A stretch of DNA of 64,000 nt from Giardia intestinalis (Eukaryota): the NCBI GenBank assembly GCA_000002435.2, contig CM018792.1. One strand, written 5' to 3'. The position numbers were made by a program, and so were the translations under genes. Shown piece after piece: positions 46,806-49,896 of the stretch; within the stretch, counting starts at the first letter, position 1; every line of letters starts with the position of its first letter. The notes under the pieces are model-generated. The model saw only the letters and a list, made by a program, of their open reading frames with translations. It was not told the origin of the DNA and searched no databases.

Positions 46806-47049
46806 TGGGCCAGCGCTCGGGCAATAGCCATTTAGAAAGCAAGTTTCTTGAGAATTACGCCATGAAATGATGAAGATGGTATGATATTTGTTGTCGATAC
46901 CAGGAGTGTGGCTTTCATCGACAAAGGGTGCCTAGATCAGTGTTCAGGAGAATAATAGAATCACATGCTGTCATCTACAGTATTTGGTGCAGAGAGGAAA
47001 GTGGAGGAGCTCAGATGAGAGTAAGTATGCAGCTAGAGGTACGCTATTA

Positions 47050-48340
47050 TCAGTGACTGTTTGTTATGAAAGGAATAAGCAGGCCACGGTGGAGGCCGCC
47101 GCCATGGGCCTGACGATCAGGAGCGACAACTGCAAGTCCACCATGGCGGGCGAGGAGGTGACCTTTCTCAACCACCCGGCGTCCCCCACTCCAGCAAGCC
47201 TTGCCCCAAAGGCCATCGCAGGTGCTGAGACTGCCCCCATAACCATCCACCAGAAGCTCATCCTGATGTCACTCTGTGTGGTCCCGATGGTGAACCACGC
47301 CCCCCTGGTCGAGATAGCATCGGACAAGGCGGACTACGAGGAGCTCGACAGACATCGCACAAGGCTTCAGCACTAACCAGCAGAAGCTGCGATCGCCTGG
47401 TCGACTTCCTGGCGTACCCGAAGGAGAAGGGCGGCCCGGGCCTGCTCATGCCGGGGCTCTACCACGACGAGCTGCGGAGGGCATGGGCCTCCCTGGACGT
47501 CAACAAGGGGACCAGAGACCCGGTGGAGCTGCCGGTGGACGGCCAGGCACTGCAGGGGAAGGGGACCTACTTCAACCGCCTCCTCACGCGCACACACCAG
47601 CTTCCGGACAGAGCGGCGGCGTACTGTCTGCAGATGTGCGGCGTGCTGACCGAGGAGGAAAGGGCCCTGAAGCAGAGAGATGGCTCGATCATGGCGCAGA
47701 CAAGAGGCACCTGCCCGGGCTGCCACACGGCAGACCCTCGACCGCGACATGAACTGCCCGAAAGCGGCGTGGACCAGGACCACGAGGCACGACATGATCG
47801 TCACGTGCCTGTACCTCCGCGTCTCGGGGAAGTTCAACGCAGACCTGGAGGTCAAGACCCACAGCCACCTCAGCGACCAGAACCAGAAGCCCGACATCTG
47901 GCTCGTCGACAAGTGCAAGGCGATAGATGTGGGCGTCATCCAGCCCCGCCAGATGGATGCCTACTACAACGAGAAGGTCAAGAAGTACAGGGACGAGACA
48001 GACGGATCCCTCCACCCCAGTCCAAGAGGCGCCTCGAGGAGCTCCACGTGGACGTCGAGAAGCTCTCCGTCCGGGCTGCCTTCGCCATCGCCCACATGGC
48101 TGCAGAGGCGAACGAGCACCTGACGAAGCTGATCAGACGGGCCGGGCCGAAAGCCTGGTCACCCAGAGCGACCGTCTCCTGTCATCCTACTTCTGACAAC
48201 CGAATGAGTCCATCCCCGGGACCCGACGACAACGATCGAGAAGGGGCCCAAGACTGGACACGCAGTCGAGTGGAATCCCAACCAGGAGAGAACGCCCCGT
48301 TAGCTGCTGCTGATCTGTATGGACAGTATTGAGAATGACA
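47050..48340 (+). mobile_element. Degenerate, frameshifted remnant of a non-LTR retrotransposon 3' region (restriction-like endonuclease domain); GilD-like candidate
   Basis: Frame A carries a CCHC-like TCPGCH. The overlapping frame B carries RHDMIVTCLYL...KPDIWLVDKCKAIDVGVI, which matches the REL-endo motifs RHD / KPD-[LI]-V / D-K / h-I-D-V of R2-type and NeSL-type elements. The reading frame is broken between the two. The region is GC-rich. Confidence 0.35.
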
Positions 48341-49374
48341 ACAAAGACCTGAGCTTCACTCACCGTGAAGGGAGAACAAGAAGAGGCACCCTAGTAGACC
48401 AGCGAGCCTGCAGGACGGCTTGGTCTCTGAAAGAACCGATGTGCACACCTAGACCGAGCACACACCCGCAGAACAGCCGAGGAACGCAGTTAGCTCCTCC
48501 CTTCCACTACTGTGGTCATTATCATATTCCATAGCCAACCCTCGTCTCCGGACATCGCCAAAAATTGAGCGGGAATTTACTCGCGAGATTTGCGGACAGC
48601 GCCCGCAGGCGAGGGCCCCAGCAGCACACCACTCAGTCAGGGGACACGACACGATCGTCGGTGCCTTTGTCTCAGGAGTGCAACGAAGGCTGGAGATCAG
48701 ACACATCCACCTTAGCAAACAGAGCGGGGATCACCCACCGCCCCAATGGCCCACCGGACCAGGGACACATACAACACCGCCCCCCGGTCCCACCAGCCTC
48801 ACCGCCCCACCAACCCCGCCTCACCCACTAGCTGGCCCACTGAGACCTGCGTGACCGCGACTGTGGGAGCGCTGACCCAGAACCACAGCCGGACGGACAC
48901 CGAGGGCCCAGCCAGTGGAGCCAGAGAGATGGCGAGAGAAGATCTGCTTACTCACAGGGGAAGCAGCGACCGAGAACAAATAACGATGCTCCTTATAGCG
49001 AGCCAGAGACCTAATAGCTGCTGTCGTCGAGACAAATGAAAGCATTGTTAAAAAGATAGTAACAACCCATATCTACCATCCACCATGAAGAAAGACCATG
49101 AAGCGAGGCACTACTCACAGACTACATGTGCTGGTGAGTAAGCTGACTCCTAGACTGAACGACGCGCACGCACAGTCTGAGCACACGCCCACAGAGCGAC
49201 CGAAGAAGGCACCAGAGTCTGGATGTATCACTGAAAAGGACTCTCTCGTTATGCTATCCATGACCAACAGTCGTCTCCGGACTGACCAGGAAGGAGCGGG
49301 TCCACCCGCACGATCTCTGGACCACGCTCAGATAGCCCCAGCAGCATAGTACAATAAGCAATATACGGTGACGC

Positions 49375-49381
49375 GTTTACT
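49375..49381 (-). promoter_or_regulatory. Polyadenylation signal AGTAAAC downstream of the minimal VSP
   Basis: The minus strand reads TGC CGT GGA AAG GCG TAG ACTTAGGT AGTAAAC GCG. The context is nearly identical to that of the large VSP. Confidence 0.7.
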
Positions 49382-49389
49382 ACCTAAGT

Positions 49390-49896
49390 CTACGCCTTTC
49401 CACGGCAGAGGAACCACCAGCAAAGGAATCCGACAAGACCACCTACAACAACAATCACAGCCACAGCAATCCCCGCGATGGCGCCGGTGGAGAGCTCGCT
49501 CTTGTTGACGCTAGAAGACACGCACTCGCTACCATTACTTGGAACAAATCCGTCGTTACACTCTGTGCACGTACCGTCGGGACATGACTTGCAGTTAGGG
49601 AGATTGCAATCAGGGGTGGGGACTCCGTCGCACGTGTTAGTCTCAGGATTTGGGGTTCCCTGAGGGCACGCGGCGTAGCATCCTCCGCTGTAGAGGTAGT
49701 GCCCCTCCCCACACAACTGGCACGCCCCGTTGATCGGGACGTTGTTTGGCTCGCATTTTGTGCAAACCTCTGTAGGAGAACCATTCATATTGACATCTAG
49801 ACAGTTATCTCCAGATGCACAATTTTGAGAGTTGGTGCACGATTTTGGATCGGCAAGCGCCAAGTAAGCGAATGCTAAACCTACCAAGTACAACAT
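49390..49896 (-). CDS. vsp: Minimal variant-specific surface protein (about 168 aa)
   Basis: Signal peptide [15 protein letters not shown] (first ATG; the track start is an upstream GTG). Four CxxC motifs and one GGCY. The tail [31 protein letters not shown] differs at one residue from that of the large VSP. Confidence 0.85.

What the first reader, a model, noticed from the sequence alone, without database searches (positions are those of the whole stretch)
46806..49390. Frameshifted non-LTR retrotransposon endonuclease remnant in the GC-rich spacer between two VSP genes
Between the two VSP genes lies a 2.6-kb GC-rich stretch with no intact ORF. Two overlapping + strand frames around 47700-47960 together spell a CCHC-like element (TCPGCH) followed by RHDMIVTCLYL...QKPDIWLVDKCKAIDVGVIQP. 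This reproduces the RHD, KPD[LI]V, D-K and IDV signatures of the restriction-like endonuclease (PD-(D/E)XK) found at the C-terminus of R2/NeSL-type non-LTR retrotransposon ORFs. The frame breaks between the two motifs and no RT motif is recognisable. The element therefore looks dead and 5'-truncated. Giardia is known to carry GilM and GilT (telomeric) and a degenerate GilD family. Its position between VSP genes suggests retroelement insertion has shaped this VSP locus. It also hints that the locus may be subtelomeric.
Basis: partly seen in the sequence, partly recalled or inferred. Interest (0 to 1): 0.7.

Follow-up and report, generated by a model that had tools for sequence, protein, structure and literature searches.

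The report
Dead Giardia retrotransposon relic beside VSPs
The stretch between two Giardia surface-antigen (VSP) genes holds the broken 3' half of a LINE-like retrotransposon, but this relic is already annotated and its kind, position and decay are all described in the literature.

Summary
The window is Giardia lamblia WB: ORF 47448-48332 is identical to XP_001709725.1, "Reverse transcriptase/endonuclease, putative".

- **Extent.** The element fills 47079-48633 (+), 1.56 kb of the 2.6-kb spacer. It is 86-92% identical in DNA to seven other Giardia copies.
- **What survives.** Homology starts 60 nt after the YADD codons of fuller copies. The RT catalytic core is therefore lost. The last RT blocks, the thumb, the CCHC knuckle and the restriction-like endonuclease remain.
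- **Damage.** It carries five frameshifting indels and two 21-nt deletions flanked by microhomology.
- **Endonuclease identity.** A profile of the C-terminal domain hits only R2 retrotransposon proteins in the PDB (E 1.8e-9). A predicted structure also matches R2 first.
- **Family.** Its behaviour matches published GilD (called Genie 2, from memory): dead, non-telomeric, beside VSP genes.

RT-derived sequence is recognisable. Nothing supports a subtelomeric position. The spacer also holds a 759-bp VSP 3'-flank unit containing a second, older copy of the element's tail.

Novelty: already known. Interest: low.

The parts
44277..46805 (-). VSP gene (842 aa, CRGKA tail). It contains five perfect 303-bp tandem repeats at 45210-46725.
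46806..47078 (.). Upstream region of the 842-aa VSP. It is lower in GC, is not part of the retroelement and matches none of the other element copies.
47079..48633 (+). Dead, 5'-truncated copy of the Giardia non-LTR retrotransposon family found beside VSP genes (GilD / Genie 2 type). It comprises the 3' half of the ORF plus the 3' UTR.
   Evidence: 86-92% nt identity to L001-L007. The 5' limit comes from the alignment.
47107..47175 (+). Last conserved RT blocks after the missing YADD box (GLTIRSDNCKSTMAGEEVTFLNH).
   Evidence: Alignments (G434, L435, C442 and F453 are invariant in A2).
47233..47316 (+). RT thumb block (APITIHQKLILMSLCVVPMVNHAPLVEI). Just upstream, at 47232, a 21-nt deletion is flanked by TGCCC microhomology.
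47353..47373 (+). Two 2-nt deletions (at 47353 and 47372). They shift the frame and create the stop at 47374-47376.
47712..47757 (+). CCHC zinc knuckle (CPGC...[H>R]DMNC), split by a 2-nt deletion at 47732. The histidine found in other copies is arginine here.
47785..47988 (+). Restriction-like (PD-(D/E)XK) endonuclease core: RHD 47785-47793, KPD 47887-47895, IDV 47923-47931, NEKVKKY 47968-47988.
   Evidence: These columns are invariant in A3. The profile hits only R2 endonuclease regions in the PDB. Fold search.
47995..48140 (+). Further lesions: a 21-nt deletion at 47995 (GGGAC microhomology, which removes GTLPIIY), a 1-nt deletion at 48019 and a 1-nt deletion at 48140.
48194..48196 (+). Original stop codon of the element ORF (...LLSSYF*). 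In this copy it can only be read in the third frame.
48448..48634 (+). 3' terminal-repeat arm of the element. Other copies carry an inverted copy of it at their 5' end. Here the 5' arm is missing and the last ~29 nt (...GGAGTAAACG) are replaced.
48634..49389 (.). VSP 3'-flank unit. It is 88% identical over 747 nt to the 3' flank of another VSP in isolate DH (L007).
49055..49346 (+). Second, older and diverged copy of the element's 3' UTR tail. It is 69% identical to 48331-48626 and ends ~44 nt from the VSP stop codon.
   Evidence: Smith-Waterman score 108, against 34 +/- 4 (max 48) in 100 shuffles. nhmmer hit at 49174-49356, E 1.6e-12.
49390..49917 (-). Small VSP gene (175 aa, CRGKA tail).

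Best explanation
Window 47079-48633 (+) is a non-functional relic of a LINE-like (non-LTR) retrotransposon of Giardia. The family encodes one ORF: a reverse transcriptase followed by a CCHC knuckle and an R2-type restriction-like endonuclease.

From established knowledge of R2-type elements, active members copy themselves by target-primed reverse transcription. The endonuclease nicks the target DNA, and the RT extends from the nick using the element's RNA 3' end as template. Incomplete copies that lack the 5' end are a common result.

This copy keeps only the 3' half. It has since accumulated five frameshifting indels and two microhomology-flanked 21-nt deletions, so it can make neither RT nor endonuclease. 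Three of its lesions are shared with another WB copy. It was therefore probably propagated as DNA, together with its VSP flank, after it had died (inferred).

By behaviour it belongs to the family published as GilD (Genie 2, from memory): dead, non-telomeric, beside VSP genes. It has no present function of its own. Its significance is historical, as a marker of the rearrangements that built this VSP island.
For: - **Organism and annotation.** ORF 47448-48332 is identical to XP_001709725.1, "Reverse transcriptase/endonuclease, putative".
- **Family membership.** There are 19 Giardia homologues down to E 2e-191, some with RVT_1 upstream. DNA identity to seven other copies is 86-92%.
- **5' limit.** It lies 60 nt after the YADD codons.
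- **Lesions.** They were mapped against the most intact C-terminal copy.
- **Endonuclease test.** A profile of the C-terminal domain alone hits only R2 proteins in the PDB (E 1.8e-9 to 2.6e-6). The next hit is influenza PA endonuclease at 0.18. C, C, C, H, D, D and K are invariant. An AlphaFold model shows an alpha-beta-beta-beta-alpha-beta core, and the top seven Foldseek hits are R2 structures.
- **Shared lesions.** P0005 and P0019 share TADPRPRHELPE. P0005 also shares YRDETDGSLHP and LIRRAGPKAW.
- **Every copy inspected is damaged.** P0003, P0007, P0009, P0011, P0014, P0016, P0020 and L003 each carry at least one disabling lesion.
- **VSP neighbours.** VSP genes lie nearby in L002, L005, L007 and L008.
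- **Literature.** GilD lies in gene-poor regions next to VSPs and is disrupted by microhomology-mediated deletions (PMC2861651). Pseudo-RT remnants lie between VSP pairs in WB (PMC7000408). Retrotransposon relics surround duplicated VSPs (bioRxiv 10.1101/2022.03.07.483299).
Against: - No reference sequence of GilD, Genie 2, GilM or GilT could be obtained. The family name therefore rests on behaviour and on second-hand descriptions. Arkhipova & Morrison 2001 is not held.
- Pfam gave no hit to the translated remnant.
- No poly(A) tail or target-site duplication was identified. It is therefore open whether this copy arose by its own insertion event or only by DNA duplication.
- The structure model is of moderate confidence (mean pLDDT 60.7), and its alignment contained R2-like sequences.
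Confidence: 0.88

Rival explanations
1. It is a fragment of one of the telomeric, possibly active families (GilM or GilT) rather than of the dead GilD family. That would mark a chromosome end or a former one.
For: Both families are Giardia non-LTR elements with an RT and a C-terminal endonuclease. Their sequences could not be retrieved for a direct comparison.
Against: - There is a single copy and no head-to-tail array.
- There are no TAGGG repeats and no rRNA.
- Gene-dense flanks lie on both sides.
- Every related copy found is degenerate, and the four that have VSP genes nearby are non-telomeric.
- GilM is described as a 5,474-bp unit in subtelomeric arrays (PMC7000408).
- The Genie-1 primer sequences from PMC1950533 do not occur in the element or in the related loci. 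The only match, at up to 3 mismatches, is a 3-mismatch match to the reverse primer somewhere in the window, at an unrecorded position.
Confidence: 0.05
2. The 294-aa ORF 47448-48332 is a real, possibly domesticated, protein-coding gene, as the 2007 annotation implies.
For: The ORF is open for 294 codons and was given a RefSeq protein accession.
Against: - From 47733 to about 48005 the ORF reads the wrong frame of the endonuclease domain (RHDRHVPVPPRLGEVQRRPGG...). The conserved RHD/KPD/IDV residues lie in another frame.
- The same out-of-frame peptides recur in other decayed copies only as translation artefacts.
- An exact look-up found no gene with this product in the assemblies held.
- The 2020 WB paper labels the reverse-transcriptase remnants it lists between VSP pairs as pseudo-RT (PMC7000408). 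This locus was not identified among them.
Confidence: 0.03
3. The relic, with the neighbouring tail-like module, is kept because it serves the VSP locus. It might supply antisense or double-stranded RNA for VSP silencing, or homology for VSP recombination and duplication.
For: - A tail-like module sits 34-36 nt from the stop of 5 of 7 VSP genes examined, always tail-to-tail.
- Terminal inverted repeats and a VSP-element-VSP palindrome occur in L002.
- Small RNAs derived from Giardia retrotransposons are reported (cited in PMC10999387).
Against: - There is no expression evidence here.
- The modules are diverged (nhmmer 43-72 bits, against 135-227 for true element termini).
- The loci were chosen because they carry the element, so the association is biased.
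- Co-duplication of the VSP plus its flank explains the constant distance without any function.
Confidence: 0.04

Closest known systems
GilD (Arkhipova & Morrison 2001), also published as Genie 2 (Burke et al. 2002; this equivalence and the 172-bp inverted repeats are from memory)
   Same: - Same host.
- RT plus a C-terminal CCHC knuckle and restriction-like endonuclease.
- All copies are degenerate, with frameshifts and microhomology-flanked deletions.
- Non-telomeric and adjacent to VSP genes (PMC2861651).
- Related copies carry ~190-215-nt terminal inverted repeats.
   Different: Nothing found differs. This copy is 5'-truncated and keeps only the 3' repeat arm. Sequence identity to the deposited reference could not be checked.
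R2 retrotransposons (Bombyx mori R2Bm, zebra finch R2Tg; PDB 8gh6, 8ibw, 9dou, 9nl3)
   Same: - Domain order: RT, thumb, linker, CCHC, PD-(D/E)XK endonuclease.
- Conserved C..C..H..C, RH(D/N), KPD, (I/V)DV and EK..KY.
- The fold search ranks R2 first.
   Different: - Only about 16-26% identical.
- Not inserted in 28S rDNA.
- The Giardia family has terminal inverted repeats.
- This copy is dead.
GilM / GilT (Genie 1 / 1A), the telomeric Giardia non-LTR elements
   Same: Same host and the same general architecture.
   Different: They form head-to-tail arrays next to telomere repeats, have intact ORFs and are about 5.5 kb (PMC7000408, PMC10999387). None of these features is seen here.
RT/endonuclease elements of other diplomonads (Spironucleus salmonicida, Hexamita inflata, Trepomonas sp.)
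   Same: They are 24-31% identical across the thumb, linker, CCHC and endonuclease. The invariant residues are the same.
   Different: They are in different genera, and many appear intact (1,100-1,800 aa ORFs).

Membership tests
Non-LTR retrotransposons with a restriction-like endonuclease (R2 / NeSL / Genie type) | Reverse transcriptase domain in the same ORF, N-terminal to the endonuclease | tested here: met
   Homologues P0007, P0016, P0018 and P0020 carry PF00078 upstream of the region matching the window. The window itself keeps only the post-YADD RT blocks and the thumb.
Non-LTR retrotransposons with a restriction-like endonuclease (R2 / NeSL / Genie type) | CCHC zinc knuckle immediately upstream of the endonuclease | tested here: met
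   CPGC-x7-H-x3-C is present in intact relatives. The three cysteines are invariant. In the window it is split by a 2-nt deletion and has H>R.
Non-LTR retrotransposons with a restriction-like endonuclease (R2 / NeSL / Genie type) | PD-(D/E)XK catalytic residues (KPD ... D ... K) with R2-like spacing and fold | tested here: met
   - D63, D74 and K90 are invariant in A3.
- The profile hits only R2 proteins in the PDB, over their C-terminal endonuclease, at E 1.8e-9.
- BLASTP of the domain against a spider R2 gives E 8e-5.
- The top seven Foldseek hits are R2, followed by influenza PA endonuclease.
Non-LTR retrotransposons with a restriction-like endonuclease (R2 / NeSL / Genie type) | Insertion signatures: 5' truncation, defined 3' end, target-site duplication | tested here: inconclusive
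   The 5' truncation is clear. A common 3' end...GGAGTAAACG, is seen in other copies but is replaced in the window. No poly(A) tract or target-site duplication was identified.
GilD / Genie 2 | All copies dead: frameshifts, substitutions, internal microhomology-mediated deletions | tested here: met
   The window has five frameshifting indels and two 21-nt deletions flanked by TGCCC and GGGAC. Every related copy inspected has at least one disabling lesion. The criterion is taken from PMC2861651.
GilD / Genie 2 | Non-telomeric, in gene-poor regions next to VSP genes | tested here: met
   The window copy lies between two VSPs. VSP genes also lie near the copies in L002, L005, L007 and L008. There are no telomere repeats or rRNA.
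GilD / Genie 2 | Inverted repeats at the element ends (up to 172 bp; criterion recalled from Burke et al. 2002, not verified in a held paper) | tested here: met
   Related copies L001, L002, L004, L005, L006 and L007 have inverted arms of ~190-215 nt. The window keeps only the 3' arm because of the 5' truncation.
GilD / Genie 2 | Nucleotide identity to the deposited GilD / Genie 2 reference sequence | not testable with these tools
   The reference sequences were not retrievable. The original paper is not held.
GilM / GilT (telomeric) | Head-to-tail tandem arrays abutting TAGGG telomere repeats | tested here: not met
   There is one copy only in 64 kb and no TAGGG repeat.
GilM / GilT (telomeric) | Intact long ORF, unit of about 5.5 kb | tested here: not met
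   The remnant is 1.56 kb with five frameshifts.

The most novel reading that the evidence does not exclude
The element family and VSP genes may be mechanistically linked rather than merely neighbours.

A diverged copy of the element's 3' tail lies at a fixed 34-36 nt from the stop codon of 5 of 7 VSP genes examined, always tail-to-tail. The element's own terminal inverted repeats are related to that VSP-flank module.

This could mean one of two things. An ancestral GilD-type element may have been site-specific for the conserved VSP 3' end, as R2 is for 28S rDNA. Alternatively, its inverted repeats may have seeded the palindromic VSP pairs and driven expansion of the VSP family.
Probability: 0.2. 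Interest if true: 0.5.

Novelty: already known. Interest (0 to 1): 0.15.

Why it matters
This adds little that is new. The relic is in RefSeq as a putative reverse transcriptase/endonuclease, and the family was described in 2001-2002. Its association with VSP genes has been noted repeatedly (PMC2861651, PMC7000408, bioRxiv 10.1101/2022.03.07.483299).

The case is useful as a worked example. It gives exact limits, a lesion-by-lesion account and evidence that copies spread as DNA after death. It also shows that the endonuclease assignment holds up against the R2 structures in the PDB.

One thread could matter. If the fixed spacing between the tail-like module and VSP stop codons holds genome-wide, it would bear on how the antigenic-variation repertoire expanded.

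Tried and rejected
- **Pfam.** A scan of the frame-corrected remnant and of the two raw ORFs gave no meaningful hit. Pfam has no sensitive model for this endonuclease.
- **Single-sequence search of the PDB.** It gave only a marginal R2 hit (E 0.8). A domain profile was needed.
- **GilM/GilT sequences for a direct comparison.** Two further large protein searches returned other diplomonad and R2-like proteins but no named GilM/GilT entry. The original PNAS paper is not held.
- **Genie-1 primers.** The primers quoted in PMC1950533 are absent from the element and the related loci. This is only weak evidence.
- **Mapping the window to a chromosome.**
  - The exact-protein look-up for the annotated ORF found nothing.
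  - The look-up for the 1782-aa neighbour returned only short-read contigs that break at the VSP edge.
  - The distance to a chromosome end therefore remains unknown.
- **Other copies in the window.** A self-BLAST of the spacer found none, and it also missed the diverged internal repeat. Smith-Waterman and nhmmer were needed for that.
- **Identity matrix of the tail modules.** The matrix built from a multiple alignment is unreliable. It gave 64% for a pair that is about 88% identical when aligned pairwise. It is not used.
- **Rejected readings.** A chance motif match, a functional 294-aa gene and a telomeric element are rejected (see rival explanations).
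Full report
**What is in the sequence**

The two flanking genes are VSP genes, and both lie on the minus strand. One is 44277-46805 (842 aa) and the other is 49390-49917 (175 aa). Both end in ...CRGKA*. 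The spacer 46806-49389 has GC 0.50-0.67, peaking at 47400-47800. The housekeeping genes to the right have about 0.45.

GTCPGCHTA lies in one frame at 47706-47732. NCPKAAWTRTTRHDMIVTCLYL...QKPDIWLVDKCKAIDVGVIQP lies in the next frame at 47752-47946.

**Is it more than chance?**

Yes. I joined the frames by eye into a 423-aa conceptual protein (47077-48332) and searched it against the large protein collection. It matched 19 proteins, all from Giardia. E-values reached 2e-191 at 60-86% identity.

Several of these proteins carry Pfam RVT_1 immediately N-terminal to the matching part. One hit, XP_001709725.1 [quoted passage not shown], is identical to the window's ORF 47448-48332.

**Limits of the element**

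I fetched eight related loci from isolates DH and GS_B and from one metagenome. BLASTN against the first seven (L001-L007) shows 86-92% identity beginning at window 47078-47101. In most copies the match ends at 48627-48633.

An alignment across the 5' junction shows that homology begins at about 47079. That is 60 nt downstream of the GCxGACGAC (A-D-D) codons of the fuller copies. The RT catalytic core is therefore gone. The following parts remain:
- the last RT blocks (GLTIRSDNCKS...VTFLNH, 47107-47175);
- the thumb (APITIHQKLIL...VNHAPLVEI, 47233-47316);
- a linker;
- the CCHC knuckle;
- the endonuclease.

The 273 bp at 46806-47078 are unrelated to the element and belong to the upstream region of the 842-aa VSP.

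**Damage**

I compared the window with the copy that has the most intact C-terminal ORF (L003, protein P0001). Relative to it, the window has these lesions:

| Position | Lesion | Note |
|---|---|---|
| 47232 | 21-nt deletion | in frame; flanked by TGCCC |
| 47353 | 2-nt deletion | frameshift |
| 47372 | 2-nt deletion | frameshift |
| 47732 | 2-nt deletion | frameshift; inside the CCHC, between CPGC and H..C |
| 47995 | 21-nt deletion | in frame; flanked by GGGAC; removes GTLPIIY |
| 48019 | 1-nt deletion | frameshift |
| 48140 | 1-nt deletion | frameshift |

The original stop (...LLSSYF*) is at 48194-48196 and is now reachable only in the third frame. The 294-aa ORF that was once annotated as a gene is a chimaera. 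Between about 47733 and 48005 it reads the wrong frame of the endonuclease.

Two other WB paralogues share the CCHC lesion (TADPRPRHELPE). One of them also shares the second 21-nt deletion and the 48140 frameshift. These copies therefore descend from an element that was already dead, which points to DNA-level duplication (inferred).

**Is the C-terminal domain really the R2-type endonuclease?**

Pfam is silent, and a single-sequence search of the PDB gave only a marginal R2 hit (E 0.8).

An exhaustive HMMER search with P0001 found 103 relatives. They include full-length RT-endonuclease proteins of Spironucleus salmonicida and Hexamita inflata. In an alignment of the C-terminal domain alone (A3, eight sequences), three Cys, His (RHD), Asp (KPD), Asp (IDV), Lys (EKV) and a Pro are invariant.

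A profile of that domain alignment was searched against 177,635 PDB sequences. It hits five R2 retrotransposon proteins at E 1.8e-9 to 2.6e-6, across their C-terminal endonuclease regions. The only other match at E ≤ 10 is influenza PA endonuclease at E 0.18, which is another PD-(D/E)XK enzyme.

An AlphaFold model of P0001 has mean pLDDT 60.7, with the core residues 210-325 at 61-89. It shows an alpha-beta-beta-beta-alpha-beta core. Foldseek ranks seven R2 structures first (E 2.8e-8 to 2.6e-6), followed by PA endonucleases. One caveat applies: the model's alignment contained R2-like sequences.

**Which Giardia family?**

I could not obtain reference sequences for GilD, GilM or GilT. The name therefore rests on behaviour:
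- There is a single copy in the window.
- There are no TAGGG repeats and no rRNA.
- Every related copy inspected carries at least one disabling lesion.
- Four of the eight related loci have VSP genes nearby.

[quoted passage not shown] It also states that GilD is found in gene-poor regions next to VSP genes (PMC2861651).

The chromosome-scale WB paper lists pseudo-RT remnants between VSP pairs and describes GilM as a 5,474-bp subtelomeric array unit (PMC7000408). A 2022 preprint reports retrotransposon relics around duplicated VSPs (10.1101/2022.03.07.483299).

Related copies also have ~190-215-nt terminal inverted repeats. This matches my recollection of the Genie 2 description by Burke et al. 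2002, which I could not verify. The window retains only the 3' arm (48448-48634).

**The rest of the spacer**

Window 48634-49392 is 88% identical over 747 nt to the 3' flank of a different VSP in isolate DH. Inside that unit, 49055-49346 is a second, older copy of the element's 3' UTR tail. It is 69% identical to 48331-48626. Its Smith-Waterman score is 108, against 34 +/- 4 in shuffles.

An HMM of the terminal repeat finds such diverged tail modules 34-36 nt from the stop codon of five of the seven CRGKA* VSP genes in the window and loci. The orientation is always tail-to-tail. The sample is biased toward loci that carry the element. Co-duplication of a VSP with its flank would also explain the constant spacing. 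I therefore record this as an observation and not as a finding.

**Subtelomeric hint**

This is not supported. The VSP/relic island (about 41-50 kb) is embedded among long, tightly packed ORFs on both sides. No telomeric or rDNA feature is present. I could not place the window on a chromosome.

**Verdict**

The feature is a dead, 5'-truncated, multiply frameshifted relic of a known Giardia retrotransposon family in its known habitat, and it is already annotated. Novelty: already known. Interest: low.

Noticed in passing
window 49174-49356 (VSP stop at 49390); L002 273-456 and 4480-4663; L007 1926-2113 and 7957-8111: A diverged copy of the retroelement's 3' tail lies 34-36 nt from the stop codon of 5 of 7 canonical VSP genes examined, always tail-to-tail. 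It is absent at the VSP ending at window 44277 and at L005 12803. This could reflect co-duplication of a VSP plus its flank, or former site-specific insertion.
   Followed up: partly
L002 1-4773; also L004 6546-9672, L006 355-3519, L007 3409-6515: Other copies of the element are bounded by ~190-215-nt inverted repeats ending in ...GGAGTAAACG. L002 is a large palindrome: VSP, flank, repeat, element body, repeat, flank, VSP.
   Followed up: partly
window 48634-49392: The 759 bp between the element's end and the small VSP are 88% identical to the 3' flank of another VSP in isolate DH (L007 1888-2700, reverse strand). VSP genes therefore carry a conserved 3' flank unit of about 0.75 kb.
   Followed up: partly
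window 45210-46725: The 842-aa VSP contains 5.0 perfectly identical copies of a 303-bp (101-aa) tandem repeat. Such perfect identity implies very recent expansion or ongoing homogenisation.
   Followed up: no
window 41153-44276: About 3.1 kb downstream of the 842-aa VSP has no ORF of 250 aa or more and has raised GC (0.56-0.64). It shows no similarity to the retroelement or to VSP proteins. Its nature was not examined.
   Followed up: no
L008 1-3327 (isolate GS_B) and L003 (metagenome ERZ28627677): The GS_B copy has an open 1108-aa frame with N-terminal C2H2-like fingers but lacks the CCHC. The metagenome copy has only two frame breaks in 2.9 kb and an intact 367-aa C-terminal ORF. The family may have been active more recently outside assemblage A.
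   Followed up: partly
WB paralogues XP_001703946.1 and XP_001705807.1 (P0005, P0019): Both share the window copy's 2-nt lesion in the CCHC. P0005 also shares two further lesions. The copies were therefore multiplied after inactivation.
   Followed up: partly
L009-L012 (short-read assemblies carrying the 1782-aa neighbour, window 50309-55657): All the contigs shown (four places, plus 17 similar ones not listed) end within about 0.5 kb beyond this gene on the side facing the VSP. This island appears to break short-read assemblies.
   Followed up: no
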